Of a DNA stretch of 37,692 bases, positions 4,313 to 37,692 are shown piece after piece (position 1 is the first letter of the stretch; each line of letters begins with the position of its first letter). This stretch comes from Collodictyon triciliatum (lineage: Eukaryota). Below the pieces are notes generated by a model. It did no database searches, was not told where the DNA came from, and worked only from the letters and a program-made list of their open reading frames with translations. The position numbers and the translations under genes were made by a program. The stretch covers positions 1 through 37,692 of the forward strand of contig JBHJMP010000869.1 of assembly GCA_043381765.1 (NCBI GenBank). The letters run 5' to 3'.

Positions 4313-9727
<5,415 letters not shown>

Positions 9728-10358: not shown

Positions 10359-13300
10359 TTATTTGGTTTCATGTATTTCCTTAGAGACCTTCCAAACACT
10401 TGTCCCATCTTTCTGGTCCTGCGCAAATCACATAACAAGTCGGAAAAGTGAATGGAAAGGATGGCTTGCAAGTCAAAGACAATCACAACCTCATGTTGCG
10501 CTGCGTAACCAGTAAAGACATTGCAAACCTCGATTCTATATCCAAGAGAAGGCAGAGTCTCGTCACGAAGTCGGTCGCATTGCTGGAAAAGGCCGCTGAT
10601 GTCCTTCTGCTTCGCAAGGCTGCGTACCTGTCTCCGGAAGTCCAGCATCGCATCCACCAATCTGCCTGCGTCCTGATTCCATGAATATAATAATAATAAA
10701 ATTGTCAGCTAAGTAGCCTTGATATTGAAGAAATATAAGCACCATTTTTCTTATAAAAAGGATACTGCTACGATTAATTCCGTTTTATGCAAAGATTAGA
10801 TAAAATGAAAAAGAAAACCAATTTAGATAAAATTAAGACTTGTGTCGGGTTTGTGTGGTTCTGTGACGGGTGAAACATCTGATGGGATAACCCAAAGTTC
10901 ATCAGAGTGCGCTCTATCAAATCCTCTGCGTCTTGGATGAGGCCTGATTGGGTGCCCTTGAATAGAATATGATTCAGGTATCAGTCAGAGTGGTGGATGT
11001 TGTATGACAAAAAACAGGGAATGAAAACAGAATTTGTAGTTAACGATGCAAAAGAGAAGAAAAATAAATACTACCCCTGTTCAAATCGGTGTCAAGCGGT
11101 CGTTAGTCAAAGCGCCATGGATGAAGGAGCAATAAATGGTAGGTAAAGCCGACGCGAGGTTTGAAAAGTGTATCAAAGAATATTTGTTTAATAGCGCATG
11201 AAAGCATTACAGTGAAGAAAAATGGTAAAACATCTTTTAAAATAGAAAAAAAAATGTGTATATATGACAATCTTTGATTGTTTCTTTTAATTTTGATTTT
11301 CTGGACAGAACGAATCACCTCCCACAGAAATGTACTTATTCACATCACTAATCAGAGTCATGATAATGCGAATAACTCGGGGAGTGTCGAAATCATCACA
11401 CAAAGCATCATGAATATTATGCCGATAGTCTGTGATTCTGGCGTTAATGCGATAGTTTTAACAGTTTAACCAACATTAGCATATTTCTATGCATATTACG
11501 AAAGATTTTGCTTGCGTCCAGAAAACACGTTCTTGAAATTAAATGGGAAACCAAAATGTGATGTTAATTGAAAACATGTGTAAACGAAAAGAAAAAAACT
11601 AAAGAAGCGAACGATGTGTTAACTAAATCGTATTATTACAGTCTTTGAAGCTCCCTTTCATTTTGTGTCCATTTTCGGAGAGGCGGGTGTTGCTCCTTCC
11701 GCTTCAAAACTCTAAAATTATTGATAAGCTTATATCTGATTCTGGTTTTGAGTGGCGATTCGCTTTCCGACGTGGCAGTATGTAAAATTAAAATATAGAG
11801 GCTATATTTCGTGTTAAATATTCACAGTTTAGGTCTTAAACAAACGCTGTGTTTTGGAAGAACTCTTTGATTTTCCTCTCTGTGCCGGTAACAAGTTCCA
11901 TAGATTCTGGATGAAAGGACATCGTCGTGTTGTACTGATGCAGAAGGCACAAGAGCCTCCATTGGTCGGCAGAGTGAGACTTCAAAAACTCCTACATTTT
12001 GGATATATGCAGCACATTGTCATTCCCTAGGATAAGCCACACCGTGTTTTTTATGGTTACTTTAAATATTGTACAAAGGCATAAATTTCGGATGCATCTC
12101 ATTGTGCAAATGAATTGATCTCATAACAAGTGGCACCTGGATTGTGATAAAGTTCTTTAACGACTTTGACATTTTCCTTCCTTCGATGTGAAGATGACCT
12201 GGCGAAAAGATGAATAGATGAATTATGAATAAATTACTGGGCACGTGGTTGAGTCAAACAGTCTGAAATTTTTTCTATTGAGAGCCAATAAAATTCAGTC
12301 TTCTTTGCTCGTGTCTGGTAAATGACAGATGAGTTACAAACGACAATGCGATTTTCTTAATCGATGTAATTAAAGAAAAAAAACCTGAGTGCAAAAAGTA
12401 ATTCACCCACTGCTCGACGCCAAAAGCACCTTCACATTGAAAAAGCTCATTTTCGTGGTGTGGGAACTTTAAATCAATTCCACCAGAGTGCATATCAAGA
12501 TACTTGCCGAATAATGACCTAGTCAGTATCAAATCCATATAAATTGTACCTCGACTACAAATTTCTGCAGTGATTTTTTTGATTAAAAAAATGACATACA
12601 AAAAAAATTACTTAACATCGTGAATACAGAATATATATATATACACTATAAATGCAAATGATACTGCGTTATTTAGTACACTTGAAAAAAGACTTTATGG
12701 TATCCTATACACACCCACACATGGCCGAGCATTCAATATGCCATCCTGGGCGACCATGACCCCACGGCGATTGCCAACCAGGGGAATCAGTGGATGTGTT
12801 TTTCCACAGAGCAAAATCACGCGGCGATTTTTTATCCTGAGAGTACCCTTCATCTGTCGAGCGAAGAGTTGATTGATATTTTGCAAGTATTGTATCAAAA
12901 GAAGAGTACTGCGCAATCGAAACTGCAGTCTTGTGATGAATTATTCAAGGTGTTTATTTCTTTTGTTGATTGTTTCTTGTTTCTGTAAATTTTTTGAGTT
13001 TTTTTTTTTTGTTAAATATCCAAGAACCTTGGAAATCATCAGTGTTTTCTGGTAAGCTACGAGACGGGTCGAGTTTTCCCTGTGAATTTTTTAAGAGACA
13101 GTTTAGTTGTTAAATTTATACCACTGAAAGAAAAGACTTTACTCGACAGCTTCTGATGAACGTGATCAAACATATTCCTCATAGTGCCACAGATTATATC
13201 TTCGTTTCATCAGCATTCGATGACTTTTGTTGCATTAATAGTGAAGCAAACCTTTCCATTTCGGAGGCTGGGAATGTTGAAATATACAGAACCGGAGGAA

Positions 13301-14073
13301 ACATATGCGTGCCCCTGTGAATTTGGGTGTTTGAAATGATAGGAATATATATGTACAAATTTTGAAGACGCGAGGGCATGTGAAGTAGTTTATTGGTGAA
13401 ATGTCGGGATAATCTACATATTGTTAAGAATTTCGAGAAAACAGTTTTGTTTTGTTTTGTTTTGTTTTGTTTTATGTTTTTTGTTTTAAAAAAGTGCTAT
13501 AATAACGATAGATGCAACAAGTAGTAAAATGAGCGACCTTTTCAAGCAATTTGGTCGTCATATCTATGATGTCGGGTATGTGTTCGGTGACCCTTGTATA
13601 GGCCGAAGGAGGAAGAACCTGTATTCAAGATTTCGATTTAACGGAATTAAAATTAATTACCAGTGATAAATACCGTGTATCAGATAAATAGAGGCCTTCT
13701 TTAGAATTTTACTTTCATTCAACTGAAAAGATTAATAATGCATGTATATATTCATATATATTTCAATTCATGTTCACGCATCCACATCCTCTGTTTATCG
13801 TCATAAAAAAGACGATAAAATAGAAATTGAAATGAAATAAATATCTGAAACTAAAATGAAATGAAATATATATTAAAATTACGTTTAAGTTATTCATGTC
13901 TCGAATAAAGTCCCCCTCAAACTTCCTAGCGAGTTCCAACCACTGCGTCTTTGTTTCTGCAGCCTTGTTTATTATCTTGTCATCCACGTCGGTCATTCCA
14001 ACGACAAGGAATATGTTGCAAGCGAAGTGATTTGTGAGGATTCGACGAATAATATCGAAGCTCACATAAGTTC
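10359..14073 (-). CDS. CARS2: Cysteinyl-tRNA synthetase (class I), probably mitochondrial/CARS2-type; 5' end lost in the assembly gap
   Basis: Spliced motifs: [148 protein letters not shown]; stop at 10361-10359. The lack of the long cytosolic C-terminal extension suggests the organellar type (inference). Confidence 0.92.
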
Positions 14074-14517
14074 NNNNNNNNNNNNNNNNNNNNNNNNNNN
14101 NNNNNNNNNNNNNNNNNNNNNNNNNNNNNNNNNNNNNNNNNNNNNNNNNNNNNNNNNNNNNNNNNNNNNNNNNNNNNNNNNNNNNNNNNNNNNNNNNNNN
14201 NNNNNNNNNNNNNNNNNNNNNNNNNNNNNNNNNNNNNNNNNNNNNNNNNNNNNNNNNNNNNNNNNNNNNNNNNNNNNNNNNNNNNNNNNNNNNNNNNNNN
14301 NNNNNNNNNNNNNNNNNNNNNNNNNNNNNNNNNNNNNNNNNNNNNNNNNNNNNNNNNNNNNNNNNNNNNNNNNNNNNNNNNNNNNNNNNNNNNNNNNNNN
14401 NNNNNNNNNNNNNNNNNNNNNNNNNNNNNNNNNNNNNNNNNNNNNNNNNNNNNNNNNNNNNNNNNNNNNNNNNNNNNNNNNNNNNNNNNNNNNNNNNNNN
14501 NNNNNNNNNNNNNNNNN
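14074..14517. other. Assembly gap (444 N)
   Basis: Run of N; hides the CysRS N-terminus, including the HIGH motif. Confidence 1.
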
Positions 14518-22899: not shown

Positions 22900-23435
22900 T
22901 GTATGTAGTCTATGCGGTAACGACCTCCCCAGAATGCGCCGTGTGCCATAGTAGGAATAACTCGATCGAACACACATTTATTCAGTGCTCTCTCACTCTA
23001 ATGACTCACCCGAACGAGGAATCAATGTAGCCAGGCTTGAGAGCCATGTGCAATACCGATTCTTGAACAGCCTGCTGAAACACACCCATATTCTTCGCTA
23101 CTCTGACCACAAGCGAAGAGAGATGTGGGAATGTGTCGTGCGATATCTCCCACAACATGTCATACCCCTGCTACCCACGCAACCAATCAACCAGTTGGGT
23201 CGCCTACCTGACCAACTCGCTATCACTCACTTCTTTCCAGTGCTACCCTCTCCACAGTAGCATCTTCTACTCGCGTCTGCTTTCTACCAGCCCTCCCTCT
23301 ACTTGTCCTTATTTTAATGAATTTACCTTGAATCTTTACGCAAGTTTTTTCTCATAATTTTTCGTTATAGCCTTTATGTCTTTGCAGATTTTGGCAGGCA
23401 AGACAGCAAGAGACTACGAAAAAAAAAAAAAAAAA
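22900..23435 (+). mobile_element. Degenerate non-LTR retrotransposon ORF2 3' fragment (zf-RVT-like CCHC finger), possible poly(A) tail
   Basis: 22926-22988 translates SPECAVCHSRNNSIEHTFIQC (C-x2-C-x8-H-x4-C). A frameshifted downstream frame stops at 23260 and an A-run follows at ~23419-23435. Confidence 0.45.
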
Positions 23436-23550
23436 GAGGAACAGAGACGGGCGCCACACCTATTTTTATTTATATATTAACTAATCAATGTATAAACGTA
23501 TAAATTAATCTTATATTTAAATTTTGTCATTTATGTATGTTATTACCTCA

Positions 23551-26500
23551 TTATGCCGAGGCTCTTTGTCTCCACTCCGCCGCTTTTTCAGTATCTTTTT
23601 GAACAGCCCATCCATTTTCATAGCATTCAGCAACAAGCGACACGGCATGGGGGTACTTATATCCACCATACTGAAGCGTCTCAGCTATCTCATTCAAAAT
23701 TTCAAATGCTTCTGCTGAGCCTTGTTGAATTAACTCTTTCAGTTCTTCAAAACTATCTGCGACTTCACCTATAATTTTCCACTTTAACGATGATGGCACG
23801 TTAATTTCAACACCCCAGCCATTCTCGTAGCACTCAGCAAGAATTGAAATAGCCTGGGGGTACTTATAAGTGCTGTTGTCATTATTTTCAGCCATTTCTT
23901 TCAAAACAGCGAAGGCTTCCTTTGAACCTTGCTGAGCTAGTTCTTTCAGTTTCTCAAAGTTTTCCACTTTTCCGTAATACCGCGTTGCTTCGGTGATGTT
24001 TTTATCGACTCCCAAGCCGTTTTCGTAGCACTCAGCAAGAGCGGAAGCTGCTTGTGGATATTTACACCCACCATATTGGACAACGTCGACCATTTCCTTT
24101 AAAATTTCGAGTGCTCCGGCTGAACCTTGTTGTGTGAGTTCCTTTAGCCTCTCAAAACTTTCTGCATCTTCTCCACCGATAATCCTCCACTTAATTGATG
24201 AGGGGATGTCCTTTTCAATGCCCCACCCATTCTCGTAGCAATCTATAAGAATTGAAATAGCTTGAGGGTATTTGTATGAACCATAGTCATTTAACTCAGC
24301 CATTTCTTTCAAAATATCAAAGGCATCTTTTGAACTTTGCTGTGCTAGTCCTTTCAGTTTCTCGAAGCCTTCTGCAACTTCTCCACCGATAATCCTCCAC
24401 TTAATTGATGATGGGATGTCCTTTTCAATGCCCCAACCATTCTCGTAGCACTCTATAAGAATTGAAATAGCTTGGGGGTATTTACATGAGCCATACTCGT
24501 TCAATGAAGCCATTTCTTTCAAAATATCAAAGGCATCTTTTGAACTTTGCTGTGCTAGTCCTTTCAGTTTCTCGAAACTTTCCGTAAGCTCCCCACTGAA
24601 TAATTTCCACTTGATTGATAACGGGATATTCTTTTCAACTCCCCAACCATTCTCATAACACTCTGAAAGAACTGAAACAGCCTGGGGGTATTTGTATGAA
24701 CCGTATTGATAAATTTCGGCCATTTCTAACAGAATATCAAAGGCATCTTTTGAACTTTGCTGTGCTAGTCCTTTCAGTTTCTCGAAACTTTCCGTAAGTT
24801 CTCCACTGATTATTTTCCATCTAAGTGATAACGGGATATTCTTTTCAACTCCCCAACCATTCTCATAACACTCTGAAAGAACTGAAACAGCCTGGGGGTA
24901 TTTATAAGAGCCATACTCACAAATTTCAGCTGTTTCTTTCAAAACGCAGAATGCCTCAATTGAACCCTTTTGCGCGAGCTGCTTAATTTTCTCAAAATCC
25001 TTCGCCTTTATGTATTTTTCTATCGCTATTGTGTCATTTTTTTCAACTATCCATCCATTTTCATAGCATTCGCCAATAATGACAACAGCTTGTGGGTATT
25101 GAGGCTTATCACCCTGAGCTCTTCCCCATAATGTCCATTCGTACTCTTTAATATCCTCCATTTCTCTTAAAATATCCATAACATCTACACCCTGTCTTGT
25201 GAATTCCTTCAACCTCTCGAAGCCTTCTGTTATTTCTCCACCTAATATTCTCCACTTAATAGACGATGGGATATTTTTTTCGACGGACCATCCGTTTTCG
25301 TAACACTCTGAAAGGGCCGAAATAGCCTGGGGGTATTTGTATTTACCACTATCGTGCATTTGTGCCATTTCTTTTAACACTCCAAAAGCAATTTGTGAGC
25401 CTTGTTTTGCAAGTTCCTTCATACCTTCGAAATCATTAGAGTATTTAAGAGGGACAACCATTCTCCAAAAATAAGCTTTATCAGAGTCTTTATCAACTCC
25501 CCAGCCATTTTCAAAGCACTCAGCAACAAGTGGGAAAGTCTGCGGATATTTGTAATTTTCTTCCAAACTACCCACCAAAAGACTAAAAGTATTAAATTTA
25601 ATCTCTGCTATTTCCAGTAAAACACCGAAAGCCATAGATGAGCCCTGTTTTGCAAGTTCCTTAAGGCCATCGAAATCCAAAGAAGATTTAAGAGGGGCAA
25701 CCACCCTCCAAAAGTAAGCTTTATCAGAGTCTTTATCAACTCCCCAGCCATTTTCATAGCACTCCGAAATAATAGGGAAAGACTGCGGATATCTATGCTC
25801 TTCTCCGGGATTTTTATTAAACATAATCAGACTAATTTTTTTCGTTTCTGCTATTTCTAACAAAAGCTCAAATGCACTGTTGGAACCTTGCTTTGCGATT
25901 TGCTTCAATTTCTCACAGTTCTCTCTAACGTCCCCGCCAAGTACTTTCCACTTAAGAAACAACAGGATATCCTTTTCAGTACCCCATCCGTTCTCATAGC
26001 ACTCGGATAGTGCAGATATAGCCTTCTGGTACTTGTATTCTCCATTACAGCTTGTCTCAGCCATTTCTTTCAACAGACTGAATGCTTCGGTGATGCCTTT
26101 TTGGGCCAGTTTCTTAAGCCCTTCAAAATTAAAGGACGATTTTAATGGAGCAATCTGCCCCCAAAATTGAGCCTTTTCAGTATCTTTTTCGACACCCCAT
26201 CCATTTTCGTAGCATTCAGAAAGAATGTCAAGGGCTCGAGGGTGTTTATATATTCCGTAATCATTGTCCTCGGCCATATTTTTCAGCTGATAAAATGCAT
26301 TCGATGAACCTTCTTTTGCTAAACTTCTTAATTTATCAAAGTTCTCAGCCTTACCATACCAATTAGATGCCTTATCAATATCTCTATCTATACCCCAACT
26401 ATTTTCGTAGCATTCACCAACAATCGAAGCGATCTCTGGGTATATATACGATTCGTTGTCAGTAAATTTTGCAGTTCCTTTTAAAACTACAAATGCTTCC

Positions 26501-29500
26501 TGCGATCCTTGTTGTGCCAGCTGCTTGACTTTTTGAAAATTCTCAGCTTTGCAGAGCCACACCATATACCTGATATTATCTGTTTCAACAATAATACCAT
26601 TTTCATAGCAATTAGCCATCACTTGGGCCTGGAAATTTGTATGTTTCTTTTCCGTACAGTAACTCACAAAGGATTGATCAAAAGAAACAGCTCCAAGGGA
26701 AAGCAGTAGTGATTTGTTCAACTGGCTCAAACCTGTAACATTTCTTATTTTAATATTTCCTCCCTCAAGATTTTTTTGGCTTGTGTACACCATAGCCGTC
26801 CCATCCAACATTCTTCCATTACTAATCAAATTCATCGCATCACTCATCTCGTTAAATTCTGCAATTATGCTTCCATTTTCTCCCCTCTTGGTTAGTTGTT
26901 TCTTTGAGTTACATTTTATATCAGACTTTCTCAAGACGAAAATTCTATTTTTTGTCCCCAAATCCCAAATGCATATAATATGGTCAACACTTGCTGAAGC
27001 CAACCACTTTTCACCACTGGGCCCTTGGATATTGGTTACATGAGTAATCGCATCATTATGGCCCCTTAATCTCATAATCTGAGTTCCAGTGACTACATCC
27101 CAAACAATAATAATCTTATCATCGCCTCCTGAAGCTAGCCAACTCTCACCGTTAGGGCCTTTGAATATGCAAAAAGCATTGACAGATCCACTATGACCGT
27201 CAAAATTATAAACTTGAGAACTAGTAGTGACATCCCAAATACGTATCGTATTGTCACTACTTCCTGATGCCAACCAGTTTTCACCTTCGGGTCCTCGAAT
27301 TGTGCAAAGAACTTTGATAGATCCACTATGGCCGTCAAAATTATAAACTTGAGAACTAGTAGTGACATCCCAAATACGTATCGTATTGTCACTACTTCCT
27401 GATGCCAACCAGCTTTCACCTTCGGGTCCTCGAATTCCACAAACACTGTTCACAGAGCCAGTGTGACCTTCTAAATTTTTCATTAGGCTTCGAGAGGCCA
27501 AATCCCAAATACGTATTGTATTATCATTACTCCCTGATGCCAACCAGCTTTCACCTTCGGGTCCTCGAATACTACAAACACTGTTCACAGAGTCTGTGTG
27601 ACCTTCCAACATTGTTATTTGATTCCCACTGTTTTCATCCCAGATTCCTATTTTTTTATCTTGGCTCGCCGAAGCGACCCAATTCTTTCCTTCTGGTCCT
27701 TGAATACCACAGATAATGTTAACTGGCTCTTTGTGAACATGAAGTGTTTTAATTTGATCTTCAAAGGCCTTATCATAGCTACTTATGATATCATCATGAC
27801 ACACAGGTCCAAATTCACCCTTATCAGAGGAGTCTTGGGAATTACAAATACCATTAAAAAAATATGTGTATCCCTCTAATATTTTAATTTGACATCCTGT
27901 GGATAAATCCCAAAGGCGTACTGTTCTGTCCTGACTTCCGGATGCCAACCACTTTTCAAAATTAGGACATTCAATACTACAAAGACTCGAGATATAGTTT
28001 GTATGTCCCTCCAGTATTTTAATTTGGTCTCCTGTAGCTACATCCCAGATACGTATTGTATTGTCATGGCCTCCAGAAGCCAACCAGATTTCACCATTTC
28101 GCCCTTCAATGCCACATACACTACTGACCGTACTTGAATGACCTTGAAATAATTTTACTTGGCTTCCAGTAGAAACATCCCAAATACATACTGTTGTATC
28201 GCTACTACAAGATGCCAGCCAGTTTTCTCCGTTTGGACCTTTAATCCAGCAAACAGAATTTACCCAGCCATTATGGCCAACAATATTTCGAACATAATCA
28301 CCATTTGACAGATTCCATATGCGTATAGTATTATCGTTGCCTCCTGATGCCAGCCAGTTTTCTCCGTTTGGACCTTTAATCCAGCAAACACAATTTACCC
28401 AGCCTATATGGCCTCCTATTGTTTTTAATTGCCTTTCTGTGGCCACATCCCAAATACATATTGTACTAGTGCCTCCTTCGAGAAGATTACTGCTGCTTCC
28501 TGAGGCTAACCAACATTCACTTTGTGGTCCATTGATAACACAAATACTATAGATGTTACCCGTGTCCCCATGGAGTGTTTTTATATGCTTCCCTGATATC
28601 ACATCCCAAATATGGATTTTACCCCAACTTCCAGAAGCCAACCAATTTTCACCATTGGGTCGCTGAATGCTACAAACAACGTTGACACCATCTGATTGAT
28701 TTTCTATTTTTCTCACTTGGTTTCCAGTACCCACATCCCAAATGTGAATTGATTTATCGCTACTACCGGAAGTCAGCCAATTTTCGCCATTGGGTCCTTT
28801 AATACTGCATACACTTGTAACAGAATCAGTATGGCTATCTAATTTTTCGTTAAGAGCTCGGAATTTCACGTGGCTCATATTCGAGGAGTCAAAGATACAG
28901 TCACCGAGCAGCGAATTACTGAAATCGACCCCATCCAAGTTAGCGCCAGTGAAATTGGCACCATCAAGGATCGAGTTGCATAGATTTGCATTAGGAATTT
29001 TGATGCCTGATAGATCAATTCCTCTGAAAGAAATGTTCATAAAGTTTAAGCATGTGATAGCATCAGAGGCAGAATCTGCTTTGCTCTCATCGATTCGTGA
29101 CACATAGACGATTTTAAACAAATTTTTGATTATAAGCTCACGATTCCAATCTTTTTCCAATTTTACATCGTCCAGTATTTCACTGATAAACTCTTTGACT
29201 CTAGTAAACTCCACAGGCTCTTTGTTTATTCCGACCATTTTTGAATGGAGGGATAAATATTCGCATGAGTTTAGAGTTATAGGATGAACCCATCGAAGTT
29301 GAATTTTAAACTTGTTATTCATTTTTGTCCAAAAAACAATGGCTTCGCTGTGCTGCTTCAATTTCATGTACAGCTTATCAATTTCTGTGCAAATAGTCCA
29401 TATCATGTTCTTATTAATTGCGAAATTTTTACAGAGCAAATAAACTGCTTTTTTGAAAAATTCAATGGATGTTTCGTGTTCATTATTTTCTTCCATGAAT

Positions 29501-29605
29501 CTTGCAATTCGAAGACATTGAGAAACATCATAAATAGAAAGCTTAGTATTTGATTCCTTTCTGATAGTAATTGCCTTGTGAAAATACTCTATCACTGCAT
29601 CAAAT
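23551..29605 (-). CDS. 6,055-nt intronless terminal exon of the STAND gene (TPR, pentapeptide, WD40 x14, SEL1-like x15)
   Basis: The 2014-aa ORF in the track; acceptor tttttatccag| at 29606; its phase matches the upstream TPR exon donor at 29709. Confidence 0.92.
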
Positions 29606-32600
29606 CTGGATAAAAATCCAATAAATAAATAAATTATGATTTATTCAAGGGGTTTTCGTTTTAATCCATAAAATGGGGATTTTTTTAAAATTAAAAACAA
29701 ATGAATTACCTTTGAAGTTCAAAATTCGTTCTTGCGACATTCTCTAAAGCGTCTGAATAGCAGGCATGTTTTTCTCCTAAGGTGTTCTTACTTATTTCCA
29801 GCGCTTTGCAATAAGCGTTTAAAGAGGCTTCATAGCTAAGGTGATTTTGTTAAATTTTTTGAGGTGATGAATAAAATTTTTTAATCTTCCTTTCACTTTT
29901 GAGGTATTCAAATTAATATTCGATTTGAGATTCAAGAAATCAAAAATATAGCTTGCATATTAATTTGATTTAAATTAAAAAATTTAAAAAATTATTGAAG
30001 TTTACTTTTTAATTCCAAAATTAATGTCCCCAATCATCCCATAGCAATTTAAAACATTTAAATGCTCCTCACCATTTTCAGAGATAAAGTCATCAAGATA
30101 CTTATCTAGTAAAGCCATCGCCTCTAATTTCCTATATAAAATTTTGATGAGATTGCATAAAATAAAAAATAATGGAGGAATTTTTTTCATAAATTCAAAT
30201 TTTTTCCGCTGATTCGATTCAAAGTTATGAACTCAAAAATGTACTTTTCACATCTCAGGTACACGGCCACTATCAATTGGATTGCTGGATATAATAATTC
30301 GTGTTTGCTCCCCAAAGTGTTTTCAAGAATTATCCTTGATTGATCAAAGTTGGAAAGAGCCTCCGTGTAGCTACGCGGATAAATCAATGATTTTTTATTC
30401 TTCCTTTCAATTTGCGAGGGTTGAAATAATTATAAGATAAAATGCATCGACATTTAGATAATTCTCTGATCAAAATATTGCTTACTTTTTCAGTGTCATC
30501 GACAAATGTCCAAATTTTCTATAGGAGTCCGCCACAAGAGGGTGCTCATTTCCACATTTATATTTACGAATGGCGATGGATTTTTTATAGTAGGATGCAG
30601 CCATGTCAGTTCTACAGAGAATATTCCGAATTAGTTCCCTGAATCTTATTTCCCTGAATCTTATTTTTAAATCTGACGTTATGAATATTACTTGGACTGC
30701 TTTAAGAATAAATCTCCAAAGTGTTCGTATGATTGAGCAACTTGTACATCATTCTCTCCAAGTTTTACAATTCTGAAATCCAAGGAAATATTATATCTTT
30801 CCAAAGCCTCATCAAATCTGCATTTAATAATGTTAATATTTTATGCATGTTGATAACAGAAAATGATAAATAGCATTTATCTGTATTTGTGATGAGCACG
30901 ATTGTGTAGGACTACATAAAATATTTCAAAATACTTCTCCTGCTGCTCGTAAATAGATCCAATGCGTTCATGAATATCAGCGATGCTCAGTATATTAGTT
31001 TCATTTTTCTCAAGAGAAAAGAGGCATCTCTCAAAATAAACAATTGATTCAGAAAATCTACAATTCATAGAAATTAAATGAAGAAATGTGAAATATTTTT
31101 TAATATTAAAATGGAACTCAAAATATTTAGCGTTACAATATTTAAAACCTTTGCAGATTCAAATAGACTCGCCCAAGGTGTAGGTAATCAAATGCCTTCG
31201 ACTCTGCTCGGCATCAGAAAGGATCAGAATTTTTACTTGATCTCATAATAAGTAAAAATTTCGCTCTTGATGTGAATGAGTTACCTTCTAATCGACTCTT
31301 TGCAAGGCGAGCATTCAGGACAGATAAGAGAAATGTATTCTCGTATGATTCTTGAAAAAAATCTACGAGCATGCCCCCCACTTTTCTTAGAGTCTTGAAT
31401 AAATTTCAATTAACCAGTTGCTTAATTCCTCAAAAGTAGCTAATTAAAGGATACGAATCGTAATAAAATCTACCTTAGCCATGGTTCCATAAGCATCTGT
31501 GTAATTTGCAACTCCTTTCTTATGAATTTCTTTCCATATATTGAAAAATTCACAGCGATGATGACCTCCAAGCATGGATATTACGACCTTGAAAGAGAAC
31601 ATCAGTGGAAAAGTAAAATAGTAATTCAAATATATATATAATTGCTACTTATATTAGACTTTTGTAACATTACATGTTCTTGTTTCAAATATTCGACAAG
31701 CAATTCAAATGATTGTCCTCTAAGCAATTGGTAGCATATCTCGGCAGCAAGCTCCTCATCCACATTTAATGTCTCTGAATACTGACTGAAAAGCCATTTT
31801 CCGTATTCCTCATGCGCTTTTACCATTTCTGCACTTTCAATGAAGTATAAATGCTCCACTGTATTTACGAGTGAAGGATGAAAGAGGATATATCTGTCGA
31901 ATAAAAAAATTAGTACAAAGTCAAAATATAACAAATTTATGAGAAGTGAATCACTAAAGCAAAAACCTTCCATTGCGAACAAAGAGGTAAACTTTAAGAT
32001 AAAAGAAGAAATCTCTCCTAATGCGATATTTTATTTTATTAGTTGAAGTATTGAAACATGTCAAGAAAGATAGAAATAATTTGATGAATTATATATTGGT
32101 ACCACTCCAGAGGTTGAAATTTAATTCCCATGATATCCTTTACGTAATTTTCCAACTCCCATTCAGTCAAGCCGATGCGAGAGACTTTGAGAACCTTCAT
32201 CGACGCAGAAACAAAATCTCTATCTGCTTATCATTTTTAATGCATTAATAAAAAACAAAGTGACATCAAGTAGTTTGTGTAATTGAAAAAAAATTTACCA
32301 CTTCCATCAAACTTGAGCTTCCAGCCCTGAAAAATTGAACTGTAGACCTCAGTCAATCCCTTAGCAGATAAAAGGGTATCCAAATATTCGTATTCATCTT
32401 TATAGAATCTGAGTGCGCAGATAGAACACAATATGGTGCGAAGATAGAGGGGACATCCTAAGACAGAATAAAAAACTATCAAAATTGAGCTGAGTTATTT
32501 TAAAGGTCTTAAAATAAACTTTACCCGTTTGCTCTATGTTTGATAGAATTAAATCTAATTGCTTCTCGTCCATTTTCTTTTCATGCAGAATGAGAAAATA

Positions 32601-35600
32601 TTCAACAATTTCCTTCACTTCGTTAACAGGGAGCTTTGTCATAGTGATGATATCTAGACCACGTTTCTTGGCGGTCTTGAAGGTTTTTAATAAAAAAAAT
32701 TTTTTTTTTAGAATTTTCTCATTTTTGAGACTTTATATTTTTATTTTCAAGTCTTTTTGTCCAATTTAAGTGTGGAAAAATTACGTTGTATGTAGTATGT
32801 GTATCGGTGGTCGAAACAATGATCAATATGTTTGATGGTGTTTCTTTTGGAAGCCAGCTCAGAAGATGAGGTGCTGGTGTTCCTTTAGACGGCTTGATTT
32901 GGTCGATAGCATCAATGAAGAAGACAAATTTCTCATTCCTATATAAATTACGGTTAATAAGTGAAAAGGTACCTTGGCCAGAAATTTCTATTGTTTTCAA
33001 TTTCTGCAAGATGGTGGTTGATGCTTGTTTCTACATAATTTTCCAAAAAAAATATATAAATGCCTGTTCGATTCTTGAATCATTCTCAATAATCCATGGA
33101 TTCCTTCCTTTTCGTAATCTGAAATAGAGTGGAATTGAGCAATGTTTTTTTATTCTATTGTTTTCAATTTTGTGCAGGATGGTGGAGATGTTGGCTTTGG
33201 TGGAATTGAACAATGTTAAAATATCATGAATAAAAAAGAATGCCCATTTTAATGATAATCTAGATGGTAACCAACCAGTGTCAAGTCTTTTTTGTCCGAC
33301 AAAACTGAACCTTTCAGTCACGAGAGTCCAAAATCGAATCGAAATACTTTAAAAATTATGTATTTAGCCAAAATTTATTTCAGATAAACAAATAGAATAT
33401 TGATGTATCTACTATTTGGATAAGGAATTTTCGAAATACTGTATGATAGAAATTGTAATTCTACCTTTCAACGTAATTGCTGTAGTTGGTGCACCCAACA
33501 AAATGGAAAAAAACGTTAAATCCAGAGTCATCTTGACTTTTTAGATCTCTCACTGCCGCGGCCAGGAGAGATGACTTTCCAATACCAGACTCGCCAGCAA
33601 GGACTATGGGATTGGAATTCTCGACATCCAGCTGGGTCATGACCTGATGTATAAATTTTATTATTGACAAAACAAAGTCAAACTTAATTAGGTACATTTT
33701 TCATTAATATATTATAAACCCATTCACTTTTTCTTTTATTGTCTTGAGATTTTCCTTTCTTCCACTGAATCCAAAGAGTTTACTCATCATGAATTGACTT
33801 TGTGCTCGGTCTTCAGAATTTTTTTTCTGAATCAATATAATATGAATGTTTTTTGTTTTTTTTCTGAATCGTTAAACATAATATGAAATTTTAAAGAACT
33901 TATAACATCATATACGAATCTAAATATTACGGGCTCAATTCCAAAATCGCGTTCAATTGAGTAGTTAATGTGGTGAACCAGATACTCTGAAAATTCGCGT
34001 GCTTCTTTGTATACGGTATGCCCATACTTGCTCTTAACTTTCTTTTTTAACTCGTTCTGTCTTTTTTCCTGGATTAATTTTTCATTGATTTAGATCAATA
34101 CAAAAGAGATAATGACTTTTTGAATTATCTGAAATAATTGAATAAATATTGAATGTCTTTTACATCCTCTTCATCTTCGACTTGGAAATTTTTCCTTTCT
34201 TTTTCACTTATGGAAGTTTTAACCGCATGTTGTTCATCGCGAACGTAGAAGAAGACACGACTACAGGCTGGTTTGTCAATCATGCACGCGTATTGAATCT
34301 AAAATATTTGATAAGTTTATTTCTTTCAAAGAAATTGCTTATTTATTGAATTATATTCACCTCATATTCGGATACACTAAGTCCAGGCATTTCATCAATG
34401 AAAGGAAAATAGCAGTTGGTCTGACTACACCACTCAACCGATATGTCCTCAATGGTGGCATCAGGCTTAGTTTTCAGCAGTTCTTGAAGGCGATCATGCT
34501 TATTTAACTCCGCTTTGCTTTGGTCGGGTATCCAACCGTAGCTAGAACCAAGGGAACACACAAAGTACGGGCATTTTTCGATTGAATCCAAACAACGGAC
34601 CAAGGTCTTTTTTAAAAGAAATCATGGTTAATATAATTGAAAAAATTGGTTATGATAGTTATTAAGGAATATTGATATTTTAACTACCAATCCCTCGTTG
34701 CTTCCCTCGAAGTTTGTTCCATGTTGCAAATCAATGAATACAACCTCCAATCCCTTCGATTTAGCAAAATTTATAATCCTAAAGAAAAGCTTAGGATATT
34801 AGAAGATTTGAAGTCTCTTCTCCCATTCTATGAAATAGTTAAAAGAAAATTGAAAAGAAGCTAACTGAGTTGCTCCGTGCTTGAAAAACTCTTTTCTCTC
34901 CTCTTCCATGTCATGAGAGCTGAAAGACAGGAAGATGCGAATAACACGCTCATGAAAAACTGTGGGTGGAAGCTTTCTCGATGTTTCGTATCTTCGTGGG
35001 GCCAAATCCCACTTCTTGAATTCTTTTCCCTTTAAGCCTTGTCGAGCAAGCTTCATCTATTTGATAATAGAATTTTTTTACAAACTTAGGCAGAATTTTA
35101 CAACGGCATTGCATCTTGTTAAATGAAAAGACTTATATTGACCTTATCAAGAAGGATGCAGGTTCTGATCAGGACAATAGAACCTTTTTCCTCCAATCCA
35201 AGACCTAAATCAATTCATATTTAAAGACTTTTTTCTTTTTGAAAAAATTAGGTATAAAAATTTGGAGCCTTGTTCTCACTTTGGAATGGAAACGGAGCAT
35301 CTGCTCTTTCGTAAAGCAACTTGGCACAATCATACCTCGAATGGCATCTTTTCTGCATTATTTGTATATTTGAGCATTGAAATATTTATTTTGATATCAG
35401 AAAAATCAAGACATAATATATGCCAACCTCGAGGAGGTCAAAATGGTCAACGCTTTTTCCGATAAGATACCAGATAATATCGTTCACCAAATCTATAAAA
35501 AAAATCAATATATAAATATTATAAATGAGATGCATATTTAAGTATCAATATCATATAGCATAACCTCGCTGCACTTTGAATCTAATAAAGGAAAAGGTAT

Positions 35601-36100
35601 GAATATCACATGGAATGCGCTTACCAGCGTAATGAAGTTCAATTCTAGTTGATTCATCGCGCACAGTCAATTTTGTAAACCAATCAACAACGAGTTTTTG
35701 ATTCTCTTCAACGAGAGCCTTTTCCTCAATAGCTTGGTCCCTAATTAAATTCCATAAATGTGAAACCGTGAAATCATTTGAATTTAGATCAATTCTGTCA
35801 AGGTGAATCAGCATTTACGAAAACAAGCGAGAATGGAAGTTTCCCAAGGGATATCCCGTGACCATCTCTATCAGCACGGTCAAGAAAAAGCCGTCCTCAA
35901 AGTCATCACAAATGTTTCTCGCCTTGAGTTCGATTTTATTCAAGTGGTGATTTACCCACTCCAGGATAGCCTATTATATTCACGAGTTTGTAAATAAGAT
36001 TCGAAGTATGGCCAAACTATAAATAAAAAATAGATTAGAAGCTGACCTCGTCAATGGTGATCAAATCAACCCCTTCGATGCTTGCTTCGATTTCGGACAT
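23551..36100 (-). CDS. Giant multidomain STAND/NLR-like protein: degenerate CH domain(s), DUF4062, NACHT/AAA_16-type NTPase, TPR array, pentapeptide repeats, 14 WD40, 15 SEL1-like repeats; ~31 exons, ~3,200 aa (estimate)
   Basis: ATG at 36100. CH-like ILEWVNHHLNK...DDFEDGFFLTVLIEMVTG. DUF4062-like RVIRIFLSFSSHDMEEER, FIDLQHG, CLDSIEKCPYFVCSLGSSYGWIP, LSVSEYEIQY. Walker A GESGIGKS (33595-33572); Walker B FVFFIDAIDQI; LSWLP; GCPLYL; SRIGLTEWEL. 42-aa TPR exons at 31057-29710 splice in frame (AG|A) to the terminal exon 29605-23551. Confidence 0.85.
23555..26625 (-). repeat. Coding tandem repeat: 15 SEL1-like units of ~65-81 aa (core YPQAxxxLxECYENGWGVEKD)
   Basis: 15 CYENG/CFENG/CYENS cores counted; 210-bp DNA periodicity at 24331/24541/24751. 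Confidence 0.92.
26960..28840 (-). repeat. Coding tandem repeat: 14 WD40 units of ~45 aa/135 bp (consensus GHxxxVxSVCxIxGPxGExWLASGSxDxTIRIWD)
   Basis: Counted from the translation; unit 8 is degenerate; 135-bp DNA periodicity at 27184/27319. Confidence 0.95.
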
Positions 36101-36465
36101 TTTTTTGCAGTTCTTTGTTTTCTGTTATACATATTAAGCACGCTGTGTATTAGTGCCCAAATGTCGTTTCTTTTCTCTTTCATAGATTCATTTTGAAAGA
36201 AACCCTCACACAAAGCACCCTTGAACATAAAATAAATGATTAATTATATTTCACCAAAAAATAACGAGATTGGGTCTTCTTTTTTTTTTTTACTCTCTGA
36301 AAATTACTATATTCTTTTTTAGTTGAAATAAAATCTACGTATTCATTTATTTCTAATTTATTTGAATGAACATTGTGCATATAAATGGTATAATCGCAAA
36401 GAGAAATACCATGTAATGAATTTGATAATGTAATATCTGTCCCAAGGAACGTGGTCTTCATGTGT

Positions 36466-36533
36466 TTTGTTGTAGTTGTTGTTTTTGTTTTTGTTTTTGT
36501 TTTTGTTTTTGTTTTTGTTTTTGTTTTTGTTTT
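36466..36533. repeat. (GTTTTT)n microsatellite
   Basis: Hexamer array upstream of the STAND gene. Confidence 0.95.
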
Positions 36534-37481
36534 CAAATCCAAAATCAGACTTCATTTAAGTCTGTAATGCGAATAAATAAATAAAAAAAAAATTGAATGC
36601 ACCCAGGTCAAAAGAACCAACATCACAACAGAGCACCGAATTATTTCAGAAGGAAAAGTGCACACAGGTTGTCTTTCATTTCTTCATGATGCCAATAGAT
36701 GAGATTTGGTCTTATTTCCAGAAGATAATATTCCCTCATGAAAGTGTCGGCACGCAAGAGGCATTTGATTTCCTTTTGGCGGCTTGCCTACCTTATAAGC
36801 TGGTGAAAATGATTGCCCTCTGAGGCGATTTCTGTTTTATATCAGACTTTGAATACTATATATGGAATTTATATATAATTACTGTAATTATTCATTTCAT
36901 GGACATTTTGAGTAAGATGTATCATTAAAATTAGTTTAATGTTGATATTTATAATATACAAAAAACATTCTGCTGGCTTGTTAATTTTGACCTCGTTGGT
37001 TTTTTACCGCATAGGGAAATGAAAATTTTGGCAATCAAAATGATTTTTGAGTCCATGTCCATTTCTGGATTATATAATAGCACAATCAATCGACACTATT
37101 CGGCACCCGTTTTTGTGTTAAAATTTCAAATAAGTGGGCTGTGTGCGCATGCCGTGCGAATTTAGAGGATTAGTGGGTCAGGGGTGGTGTCACATCCACA
37201 GAGAAATGGCGGTGATATGCAGGTGTGCCTGACGCAACACGCATAATGCTAATGCTATCGATAAGCATATCCTCTGCCGGTATTATTCAAATACATAAAA
37301 ATTTGGGTTATTTAAATGAAACAGTATATTTTAGAAGTGAGGCATGTCACGTTAGGTTTCATCAAAACAACCTGGATTTCAACAATCGCACCCGCCTACT
37401 TCGAATCGAATAATGGAACAATCATCGCTCCTTAAGAGTCCCCAGGTGGAACCATTACATATCCCCGCTAATATTACTGAA

Positions 37482-37692
<211 letters not shown>

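What the first reader, a model, noticed from the sequence alone, without database searches (positions are those of the whole stretch)
23551..36100. Giant protist NLR/STAND-like receptor carrying three different sensor-type repeat arrays in one polypeptide
Seen: one in-frame spliced gene encoding CH-like, DUF4062, STAND NTPase (intact Walker A GESGIGKS, Walker B FIDAIDQ, GxP), about 9 TPR, pentapeptide, 14 WD40 (two 7-bladed propellers) and 15 SEL1-like repeats. Established: DUF4062+NACHT proteins (TEP1, NPHP3/TTC41, NWD1-like) and fungal NLRs normally carry one type of superstructure repeat (TPR, WD40 or ANK). Inference: stacking TPR, WD40 and SEL1 behind one switch, with the WD40 and SEL1 arrays recombining and the TPR array built from exchangeable exons, suggests a modular intracellular non-self/immune receptor. 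I do not recognise this architecture.
Basis: partly seen in the sequence, partly recalled or inferred. Interest (0 to 1): 0.85.

Follow-up and report, generated by a model that had tools for sequence, protein, structure and literature searches.

The report
Giant protist NLR-like multi-repeat protein
One apparently intact 30-exon gene encodes a 3,216-residue ATPase-switch protein of the TEP1/NWD family with four kinds of repeat behind the switch, a layout otherwise seen only in the flagellate Diphylleia rotans; an immune role is plausible but untested.

Summary
On the minus strand, 36100..23551, I built a model of 30 GT-AG exons (9,651 nt, 3,216 aa, no internal stop). Its order is CH, DUF4062, NACHT, about 9 TPR, pentapeptide, 14 WD40 blades, a linker, and 15 Sel1-like units of about 70 aa.

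A Diphylleia rotans transcript (P0009, 2,619 aa) runs collinear with it from the CH domain across the 29605 junction into the first Sel1 unit, at 41.5% identity. This makes one gene likely, but no RNA from this organism was available.

The architecture is not unique. D. rotans has several paralogs, and the WD40-linker-Sel1 junction occurs in only 6 of 1.84 billion representative proteins. The 15-unit Sel1 expansion is specific to this gene.

Three 2026 preprints show DUF4062 is a TIR-like NADase fused to NLR-like proteins. Here the catalytic Glu is kept, but the RWG loop and the TEP1 R976 equivalent, present in 21 of 21 homologs, are replaced.

The repeats are at most about 86% identical in DNA, with dS of 0.36 or more and dN/dS below 1. 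Ongoing recombination is therefore not shown.

Verdict: a new variant of a known kind, of moderate interest.

The parts
23551..36100 (-). Whole coding region: 30 exons, 9,651 nt CDS, 3,216 aa
   Evidence: Model: all introns GT-AG (62-291 nt), no internal stop. Collinear with D. rotans P0009.
36047..36100 (-). Exon 1 with the proposed start codon (uncertain)
   Evidence: Chosen by the splice-path search. No homolog support; the N-termini of P0009 and P0132 find nothing upstream.
35143..35970 (-). Exons 2-6: calponin-homology (CH) domain and following helical region
   Evidence: Pfam CH 19.3 bits on exon 2. PDB CH-protein matches, best E 2.6e-4. Aligns to P0009 residues 188-342.
34164..35056 (-). 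Exons 7-10: DUF4062 / NIR / TeTIR TIR-like domain. Catalytic Glu present; RWG loop and the R976 equivalent replaced.
   Evidence: Pfam DUF4062 26.2 bits. The homologous P0009 stretch hits the human TEP1 domain 11gz_A at E 1.6e-16. 22-row alignment.
32299..33826 (-). Exons 12-17: NACHT NTPase. Walker A in 33465-33643, Walker B in 32785-33030, GxP in 32299-32457.
   Evidence: Pfam NACHT, AAA_16 and NPHP3_N on exon pieces. Motifs aligned with 12 homologs.
33031..33321 (-). Intron 14 (291 nt), holding a degenerate duplicate of the 5' part of exon 15
   Evidence: Read from the sequence. Weak tblastn match of P0009 726-760 at 33119-33015 (E 4.5). Using it would need a GC-AG intron.
31149..32223 (-). 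Exons 18-23: winged-helix/helical arm after the NACHT and the first half TPR
   Evidence: Collinear with P0009 residues 899-1123.
29710..31057 (-). Six one-repeat TPR exons: 31057-30935, 30817-30692, 30611-30486, 30370-30245, 30131-30006, 29835-29710. All phase 2-2.
   Evidence: lengths 123, 126, 126, 126, 126, 126. TPR_12 hits of 14.4-21.6 bits on three of them. One-to-one with P0009 repeats.
29050..29605 (-). Start of the 6,055-nt terminal exon: last about three TPR-like units and a helical spacer
   Evidence: Acceptor at 29605. TPR_1 and TPR_8 traces. Aligns to P0009 residues 1371-1500.
28858..29049 (-). Pentapeptide-repeat segment
   Evidence: Pfam Pentapeptide 47.1 bits, residues 192-230 of the piece.
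26977..28857 (-). 14 WD40 blades (7 + 7; the eighth is degenerate)
   Evidence: Pfam WD40 272.6 bits. Blade list. 135-nt period at 78-86% matches.
26602..26976 (-). Lineage-specific linker between the WD40 and Sel1 arrays
   Evidence: Found in 6 of 1,835,955,588 representatives: 5 from D. rotans and 1 unnamed fragment. The fold model was poor (pLDDT 48).
23554..26601 (-). 15 Sel1-like units of 66-81 aa
   Evidence: Pfam Sel1 183.9 bits. 15 anchors. 15 DNA core copies and 210-nt units up to 85% alike. All-helical model (pLDDT 69.8) whose best PDB matches are Sel1-repeat proteins.

Best explanation
This is a single, apparently intact gene for a 3,216-aa STAND (NACHT) switch protein. It belongs to the DUF4062/NIR/TeTIR-NACHT class that also holds TEP1, NWD1/2, NPHP3 and TTC41. 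Within that class it belongs to a small family so far seen only in the freshwater flagellate Diphylleia rotans and in this window.

Domain order: CH, TIR-like DUF4062, NACHT plus helical arm, about 9 KLC/NPHP3-type TPR, a pentapeptide beta-helix, two 7-bladed WD40 propellers, a family-specific linker, and a Sel1-like solenoid expanded here to 15 units.

Inferred mechanism:
- The C-terminal repeat stack binds partners or ligands and keeps the NTPase off.
- Binding permits nucleotide-dependent oligomerisation through the NACHT.
- Oligomerisation clusters the N-terminal CH and DUF4062 modules.
- This copy keeps the catalytic Glu, F902, R914 and C959 equivalents. It has replaced the RWG loop (QHG) and the R976 equivalent (Ser).
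- Its output is therefore more likely scaffold or proximity signalling, or teaming with catalytically intact paralogs, than TEP1-like NAD+ hydrolysis.

Shown: gene structure, domain content, family placement and the active-site substitutions. Inferred: splicing in this organism, oligomerisation, ligand sensing and any role in non-self surveillance.
For: - Gene model: 30 GT-AG exons and 3,216 codons without a stop in AT-rich DNA.
- Collinear homolog: D. rotans transcript P0009 matches model residues 17-2090 at 41.5% identity (1,697 bits), and a second alignment reaches residue 2219. This crosses every exon junction from exon 2 on (names).
- Domain hits.
- NACHT motifs match the family in 13 of 13 rows.
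- Family placement: the nearest relatives of the DUF4062-NACHT part are four D. rotans proteins (31.5-42.2%). Balamuthia, Saccoglossus, Dictyostelium and TEP1 proteins follow at 21-26%.
- The linker is found in 6 of 1.84 billion representatives.
- Variable C-termini in the family: a single Sel1-like motif in P0009, P0132, P0010, P0200 and P0201, several units in P0080, and 15 units here.
- 9 of 11 parsed WD40 blades resemble another blade of this gene more than any of 17 P0009 blades; 1 is lower and 1 ties.
- DUF4062 as an NADase, and the residue roles: preprints 10.64898/2026.05.01.722283, 10.64898/2026.09.04.749371 and 10.64898/2026.09.21.753143 (sections and passages read).
- Residue mapping through PDB 11gz_A and the 22-row alignment. 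DLRWG and G-x-R-[YF]-G are present in 21 of 21 homologs and absent here. The catalytic Glu is present in all 22 rows.
Against: - No transcript data exist for this organism. Splicing, the start codon and single-mRNA status rest on homology and splice logic.
- P0009 is only about 42% identical and may be a paralog rather than the ortholog.
- The residue argument is transferred from human TEP1 mutants. A Gln/His/Ser active site might still bind NAD+ or another nucleotide.
- Animal members of the class (TEP1, NPHP3, NWD1) are not known immune receptors.
- Repeats evolve under purifying selection (dN/dS 0.10-0.71) and lack the high internal conservation typical of fast-evolving fungal NLR sensors.
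- Intron 14 holds a possible alternative or decayed exon, so the model may be wrong in that 30-aa stretch.
- The genome is not held, so copy number in this organism is unknown.
Confidence: 0.5

Rival explanations
1. It is a fully active NADase immune receptor, as the first reader proposed and as the 2026 literature would now frame it. The repeats sense a pathogen or virus, the NACHT oligomerises, and the DUF4062 domain depletes NAD+ and kills or arrests the cell.
For: - The DUF4062-STAND-repeat layout is that of Avs-type bacterial defence proteins and of most eukaryotic NIR proteins.
- The catalytic Glu and the F902, R914 and C959 equivalents are kept.
- The family is multi-paralog, lineage-restricted and shuffles its C-terminal cassette between NTPase types.
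Against: - The R942/W943 (RWG) and R976 equivalents are Q, H and S here, against 21 of 21 homologs that keep them.
- R942A and R976A abolish TEP1 activity (Discussion passages).
- NWD1, NWD2 and NPHP3 were inactive or barely active in vitro although they keep more of the site.
- No infection or expression data exist.
Confidence: 0.2
2. It is a constitutive, non-immune scaffold comparable to NPHP3 (cilium), TEP1 (vault) or NWD1. It would be tethered to the cytoskeleton by its CH domain and would use the long repeat stack to assemble a fixed complex.
For: - NPHP3-type signatures in the family: NPHP3_N and TPR_NPHP3 in P0133 and P0136, with faint matches on window exons.
- A CH domain is present.
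- The NADase site is degraded, as in NPHP3.
- The TPR count is conserved one-to-one with P0009.
- dN/dS is below 1 and no unit pair is near-identical.
- A kinesin-2-like gene in the same window suggests a flagellate (the motif reading is recalled).
Against: - The family is restricted to one lineage and has several diverged paralogs.
- Sel1 count ranges from 1 to 15 between relatives, and blade numbers differ: 14 here, at least 17 parsed in P0009.
- The same C-terminal cassette sits on two unrelated NTPase modules.
- These are features of conflict-type families rather than of core machinery.
Confidence: 0.23
3. It is a gene-model artefact. The locus is two genes (CH-DUF4062-NACHT-TPR and pentapeptide-WD40-Sel1), or a decaying pseudogene read through by my model.
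For: - No RNA evidence from this organism.
- Exon 1 is unsupported.
- Intron 14 carries a decayed exon copy.
- Conserved DUF4062 residues are lost.
Against: - The D. rotans transcripts P0009 and P0132 span the same junction in one ORF.
- The last TPR exon and the terminal exon share phase 2, and the split codon aligns with P0009.
- 3,216 codons have no stop and 29 introns are all canonical.
- Purifying selection acts between repeat units.
Confidence: 0.07

Closest known systems
Diphylleia rotans EukProt transcripts (EP00002: P0009/P0129, P0132, P0134; partly P0010, P0200)
   Same: Same domain order from CH through DUF4062, NACHT, six-plus TPR, pentapeptide, WD40 propellers and linker to a Sel1-like unit. 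Identity is 41.5% (P0009) and 32% (P0132) over about 2,000 residues.
   Different: These proteins end after one Sel1-like motif and keep DLRWG and the R976 equivalent. The window gene has 15 Sel1 units, 14 blades (at least 17 parsed in P0009) and a substituted NADase site. They are unannotated transcriptome ORFs.
TEP1 / NWD1 / NWD2 / TTC41 / NPHP3 class (DUF4062 = NIR = TeTIR fused to NACHT)
   Same: A TIR-like DUF4062 lies directly upstream of a NACHT, followed by a helical arm and WD40 or TPR repeats. The catalytic Glu aligns with TEP1 E1008.
   Different: Identity is only 21-26%. There is no TROVE/vWA; a CH domain sits at the N-terminus instead. Both TPR and WD40 are present, plus pentapeptide and Sel1, where the TeTIR preprint describes 'either WD40 or TPR'. 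The RWG loop and R976 are replaced.
Bacterial Avs-type and other STAND defence proteins with a DUF4062/NIR effector
   Same: Three-part logic: N-terminal NADase-type effector, STAND NTPase, C-terminal repeats.
   Different: This is a eukaryotic, intron-rich gene about three times longer, with four repeat types and a probably impaired effector.
Fungal HNWD/HET-E-type NLRs with highly conserved repeats
   Same: NACHT plus WD40 arrays built by tandem duplication. HET-E-like proteins appear among the WD40 hits.
   Different: Internal conservation here is 76-81% in protein, below the fungal 85%-over-100-aa criterion. dN/dS is below 1 and no polymorphism data exist.
D. rotans P0080 (other NTPase + pentapeptide-WD40-linker-Sel1 array)
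   Same: It shares the C-terminal cassette including the rare linker and a multi-unit Sel1 array (Pfam Sel1 63.6 bits).
   Different: It has a different N-terminal P-loop module, with no DUF4062, TPR or CH match to the window, and fewer, more diverged Sel1 units.

Membership tests
DUF4062/NIR/TeTIR-NACHT STAND proteins (TEP1, NWD1/2, NPHP3, TTC41 class) | DUF4062 TIR-like domain directly upstream of the NACHT | tested here: met
   Pfam DUF4062 26.2 bits (above 24.7) on exon 9. The domain is followed by the Walker A exon in the model. The homologous P0009 stretch hits TEP1 11gz_A at E 1.6e-16.
DUF4062/NIR/TeTIR-NACHT STAND proteins | NACHT-type P-loop NTPase with Walker A, Walker B and GxP | tested here: met
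   GESGIGKS, FFIDAIDQ and GCPLYL align with the motifs of 12 homologs. Pfam NACHT on single exons is just below cut-off (23.9 and 16.3 against 26.7).
DUF4062/NIR/TeTIR-NACHT STAND proteins | C-terminal WD40 or TPR repeats | tested here: met
   Both are present: WD40 272.6 bits, and TPR exons aligned with TPR_12-positive repeats of P0009.
Catalytically competent NIR/TeTIR NADase | Catalytic glutamate (human TEP1 E1008) | tested here: met
   The second Glu of SVSEYE aligns with E1008. It is present in 22 of 22 rows.
Catalytically competent NIR/TeTIR NADase | RWG loop (R942, W943) and R976, whose alanine mutants lose activity in TEP1 | tested here: not met
   The window has DLQHG and GSSYG. DLRWG and G-x-R-[YF]-G occur in 21 of 21 homologs. 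Mutant data come from passages of 10.64898/2026.09.21.753143.
Catalytically competent NIR/TeTIR NADase | NAD+ hydrolysis to ADP-ribose and nicotinamide | not testable with these tools
   Needs a biochemical assay.
NLR-type immune receptor (functional sense) | Ligand-triggered oligomerisation and a defence or cell-death phenotype | not testable with these tools
   No expression, infection or genetic data. No RNA run was listed.
Fungal-type NLRs with highly internally conserved, concertedly evolving repeats | At least 85% identity between repeats over at least 100 aa (Dyrka et al. 2014, PMC4986451; passages read) | tested here: not met
   Best pairs are 76% (WD40, 45 aa) and 81% (Sel1, 70 aa). 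DNA identity is at most 86% and dS at least 0.36.
Sel1-like repeat (SLR) proteins | Sel1 sequence signature and alpha-alpha solenoid fold | tested here: met
   Pfam Sel1 183.9 bits. The single-sequence AF2 model of the last 420 aa is all-helical (pLDDT 69.8). The top Foldseek matches are Sel1-repeat proteins (6ok3 at E 1.8e-6) and SEL1L, but TM-scores are only 0.16-0.19.
TEP1 orthologue | N-terminal TROVE and vWA domains before the DUF4062 | tested here: not met
   The N-terminus is a CH domain. TEP1 proteins are only 21-22% identical.
NPHP3 orthologue | NPHP3_N / TPR_NPHP3 signatures and loss of the catalytic Glu | tested here: inconclusive
   NPHP3_N scores 19.0 bits (below 24.8) and TPR_NPHP3 12.6-13.3 bits (below 100) on exons. 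The Glu is present here but absent in NPHP3. Proteins under 1,440 aa, NPHP3 probably among them, were outside the length range.

The most novel reading that the evidence does not exclude
The gene may be the 'sensor' half of a protist NLR network. Its TIR-like NADase domain has been disabled, and its recognition surface has been enlarged by a lineage-specific 15-unit Sel1 solenoid stacked on TPR, pentapeptide and WD40 modules. It would signal by co-oligomerising with paralogs that keep an intact NADase site, such as the P0009 type. That would be a sensor/helper division of labour, evolved independently of plants, in a deep-branching eukaryote (Diphyllatea/CRuMs-like).
Probability: 0.12. Interest if true: 0.75.

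Novelty: new variant of a known kind. Interest (0 to 1): 0.5.

Why it matters
DUF4062/NIR/TeTIR-NACHT proteins were recognised only in 2026 as a widespread eukaryotic class of TIR-like NADase-bearing NLR-like proteins, and their cellular roles are largely unknown.

This locus gives a genomic view, with full exon structure, of an extreme member from a little-studied protist lineage.
- It has four different repeat folds behind one switch.
- It has one-repeat symmetric TPR exons.
- Its Sel1 array grew from 1 to 15 units.
- Its effector site has lost residues that every compared homolog keeps.

It is a natural test case for three questions: how sensor arrays are assembled by cassette shuffling, whether NADase-dead members act as scaffolds or as sensors, and whether NLR-like surveillance exists in CRuMs-type protists. 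It does not open a new category. Relatives already sit unannotated in EukProt, and the class is described.

Tried and rejected
- Codon-usage log-odds trained on the terminal exon did not separate exons from introns.
- A splice-path search that maximised exon length over-extended exons. One weighted by P0009 matches skipped unsupported exons. The final model merges both with hand-checked junctions.
- The word-index search with residues 1-270 of the terminal exon returned 7 pentapeptide proteins and missed P0009. It is therefore no evidence of absence.
- No whole genome is held, so paralogs in this organism could not be counted.
- No RNA holder was listed.
- Laying three freshwater-metagenome DNA runs gave only short contigs (151-293 nt) with 0-2 differences over parts of the locus, a few intronic indels, and joints with sides of 21-24 letters. 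This was too thin to say anything about repeat-number polymorphism.
- The earlier-findings index gave nothing by place, words or sequence.
- The search for upstream exons homologous to the P0009 and P0132 N-termini found nothing.
- The AlphaFold model of the linker, from a 7-row alignment, was too poor to search with (pLDDT 48, pTM 0.30).
- The Sel1 model matched Sel1 proteins by E-value but with TM-scores of 0.3 or less. It supports only the local fold.
- Literature: 'Diphylleia' + 'NACHT' gave one unrelated paper. 'NACHT, Sel1, WD40, TPR, protist' (4 of 5 terms) gave 15 papers, of which 14 were listed. Judged from the titles and abstract openings of those 14, and from passages of two that I read, none describes this architecture.
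- Supplementary tables of the three DUF4062 preprints, which may list the D. rotans proteins, could not be opened.
- An alternative path through the duplicate exon in intron 14 was considered. It was not adopted because it needs a GC-AG intron and a weak GTTTTG donor.
Full report
**What is there**

The window is AT-rich eukaryotic DNA with short introns. From 23551 to 29640 the minus strand carries an open frame of 2,029 codons. Upstream, to about 36100, lie many short open pieces in changing frames. G+C is 0.38-0.415 with a strong negative GC skew over 23001-29000, and 0.30-0.35 over the intron-rich part.

Pfam on the long frame gives:
- WD40, 272.6 bits, and Sel1, 172.2 bits.
- Pentapeptide, 47.1 bits, and Sel1, 183.9 bits, on its sub-parts.

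The short pieces give:
- DUF4062, 26.2 bits (cut-off 24.7).
- NACHT, 23.9 and 16.3 bits on the Walker A and Walker B exons (cut-off 26.7).
- NPHP3_N, 19.0 bits, and CH, 19.3 bits.

The CH exon matches 48 PDB sequences at E up to 10. The best 43 are parvin, actinin, plectin, filamin, spectrin or dystrophin chains (best E 2.6e-4).

**Gene model**

Two splice-path searches and hand-checked junctions gave a model of 30 exons. All are GT-AG, with introns of 62-291 nt. The CDS is 9,651 nt and encodes 3,216 aa with no internal stop. The ATG is at 36100 and the stop at 23551-23553.

The decisive guide was protein P0009 (2,619 aa), the best hit of the terminal exon among 6,878 candidates (1,056 bits). 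It is a Trinity transcript ORF of Diphylleia rotans in EukProt.

Its tblastn matches run in order from 35970 to 26932. The global comparison gives 41.5% identity over model residues 17-2090, and a second alignment reaches residue 2219. That span crosses the junction at 29605 between the last small TPR exon and the 6,055-nt terminal exon. A single mRNA with this layout therefore exists in a relative.

Splicing in this organism is not shown. No RNA run holds the locus, and exon 1 has no homolog support.

**Anatomy**

In order, the protein has:
- A CH domain.
- DUF4062.
- A NACHT with GESGIGKS, FFIDAIDQ and GCPLYL, aligned with the family motifs in 13 of 13 rows.
- A helical arm.
- About 9 TPR of 41-42 aa. 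Six of them are each encoded by one exon of 123 or 126 nt, all phase 2-2.
- A pentapeptide segment.
- 14 WD40 blades, of which the eighth is degenerate.
- A 125-aa linker.
- 15 Sel1-like units of 66-81 aa (15 DNA core copies).

A single-sequence AlphaFold model of the last 420 aa is all-helical (pLDDT 69.8). Its best PDB matches are Sel1-repeat proteins and SEL1L (E 1.8e-6 and up), but TM-scores are low.

**Family**

The DUF4062-NACHT part is closest to four D. rotans proteins: P0009 at 42%, P0134 at 39% (partial), P0132 at 38% and P0133 at 31.5%. Next come Balamuthia, Saccoglossus, Dictyostelium and many TEP1 proteins at 21-26%.

P0133 and the Balamuthia protein carry DUF4062, NPHP3_N or NACHT, and TPR_12/TPR_NPHP3.

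A full HMMER scan with the linker found 6 proteins among 1,835,955,588 representatives. Five are D. rotans transcripts and one is an unnamed 183-aa fragment. Five of these six carry WD40 before the linker by Pfam. Pfam also finds Sel1 after it in P0080 (63.6 bits) and, below cut-off, in P0201 (20.3 bits). For the others a Sel1-like motif was read by eye in the printed tails.

P0009, P0132, P0010, P0200 and P0201 end after one such motif. P0080 has several units and a different P-loop module at its N-terminus.

So the C-terminal cassette pentapeptide-WD40-linker-Sel1 is shuffled between NTPase types within this lineage. The 15-unit array is an expansion specific to the window gene.

**The effector domain**

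Three 2026 preprints show that DUF4062 (renamed NIR or TeTIR) is a TIR-like NADase:
- It acts as an effector in bacterial anti-phage systems.
- Most eukaryotic DUF4062 proteins are NLR-like.
- Human TEP1 is an active NADase that depends on E1008.

I read named sections of 10.64898/2026.05.01.722283 and 10.64898/2026.09.04.749371 and passages of 10.64898/2026.09.21.753143. The last reports that R942A and R976A abolish activity. It also reports that F902, C959 and R914 are needed and that R908 matters less.

The P0009 domain aligns to the TEP1 crystal chain 11gz_A at E 1.6e-16. Chain position plus 893 gives the human residue number, checked at R908, R954 and R976.

In a 22-row alignment:
- The window keeps the equivalents of F902, R914, C959 and E1008.
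- It has H for R908, QH for R942-W943 (DLQHG for DLRWG), and S for R976.
- DLRWG and G-x-R-[YF]-G are present in 21 of 21 homologs.
- The catalytic Glu is present in all 22 rows.

All these residues lie inside exons, so splicing choices do not affect them. I therefore predict that this copy is a poor NADase or none. That is an inference from human mutants.

**Are the arrays recombining?**

Tandem duplication is clear. There is a 210-nt period of 3.9 copies at 85% matches, and a 135-nt period at 78-86%.

The closest units are only 81-86% identical in DNA. In protein they are 76% (WD40) and 81% (Sel1) identical. dS is 0.36 or more and dN/dS is 0.10-0.71. This is below the 85%-over-100-aa criterion for concertedly evolving fungal NLR repeats (PMC4986451; passages read).

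Over longer times there has been turnover. 9 of 11 parsed blades are closer to another blade of this gene than to any of 17 P0009 blades.

The six symmetric TPR exons could be duplicated or skipped in frame. They nonetheless match P0009's repeats one-to-one.

**Interpretation**

This is an NLR-like STAND protein and a new architectural variant of the DUF4062-NACHT class.

The TeTIR preprint describes C-termini of 'either WD40 or TPR'. This family has both, plus pentapeptide and Sel1.

An immune or conflict role is suggested by three things: the class, the lineage restriction, and the paralog and cassette variability. Against it stand the degraded effector site, the purifying selection, the CH domain, and the non-immune roles known for animal relatives.

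I rate the readings as follows:
- About 0.5 for an NLR-like sensor or scaffold with an impaired NADase.
- 0.2 for a fully active NADase receptor.
- 0.23 for a constitutive NPHP3-like scaffold.
- 0.07 for a model artefact or pseudogene.

**Organism**

The best and nearly only relatives are from D. rotans. Short, near-identical contigs occur in a freshwater metagenome. 'Protist' is therefore reasonable but not proven.

**Limits**

- There is no genome, so no paralog count in this organism.
- There is no RNA.
- Supplements of the preprints were closed.
- The linker fold failed.
- The stretch around intron 14 may be alternatively spliced.

Noticed in passing
window 33031-33321 (minus strand, intron 14): The 291-nt intron holds a diverged copy of the 5' part of exon 15. 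One frame of it reads a peptide closer to D. rotans P0009 residues 726-744 than the exon-15 version does. Using it would need a GC-AG intron and a weak donor. It may be an alternative or a decaying exon.
   Followed up: partly
window 26602-26976 (minus strand): The 125-aa linker between the WD40 and Sel1 arrays is an extremely rare sequence: 6 hits in 1.84 billion representatives, 5 of them from D. rotans. The low-confidence model suggests one extra blade-like beta unit followed by helices.
   Followed up: partly
D. rotans protein P0080 (stored protein, residues about 470-2169): The same pentapeptide-WD40-linker-Sel1 cassette is attached to a different P-loop NTPase that has no DUF4062 or TPR. 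This is evidence of cassette shuffling between STAND families in that lineage.
   Followed up: partly
window 5644-6168 (+), with further exons to about 7240: Exons of a kinesin motor. The SSRSH and DLAGSE-type motifs are recognised from memory, and it looks kinesin-2-like. This would fit a flagellated organism.
   Followed up: no
window 12275-12607 and 13763-14060 (minus strand); N run about 14070-14500: Pieces that look like a class I aminoacyl-tRNA synthetase (possibly cysteinyl-tRNA synthetase; recalled resemblance), interrupted by an assembly gap of Ns.
   Followed up: no
window 36440-36530, 37455-37660, 4400-4600, 9290-9400: Long microsatellites flank the genes: a six-base AAAAAC-type repeat just upstream of the start codon, and ATT/AAT-type and other short-unit runs elsewhere.
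   Followed up: no
window 30294-30586, 31075-31292, 33021-33255, 33478-33628: Short contigs from coded freshwater-metagenome runs match these stretches, introns included, with 0-2 differences. The organism or a very close strain is present there at low depth.
   Followed up: partly
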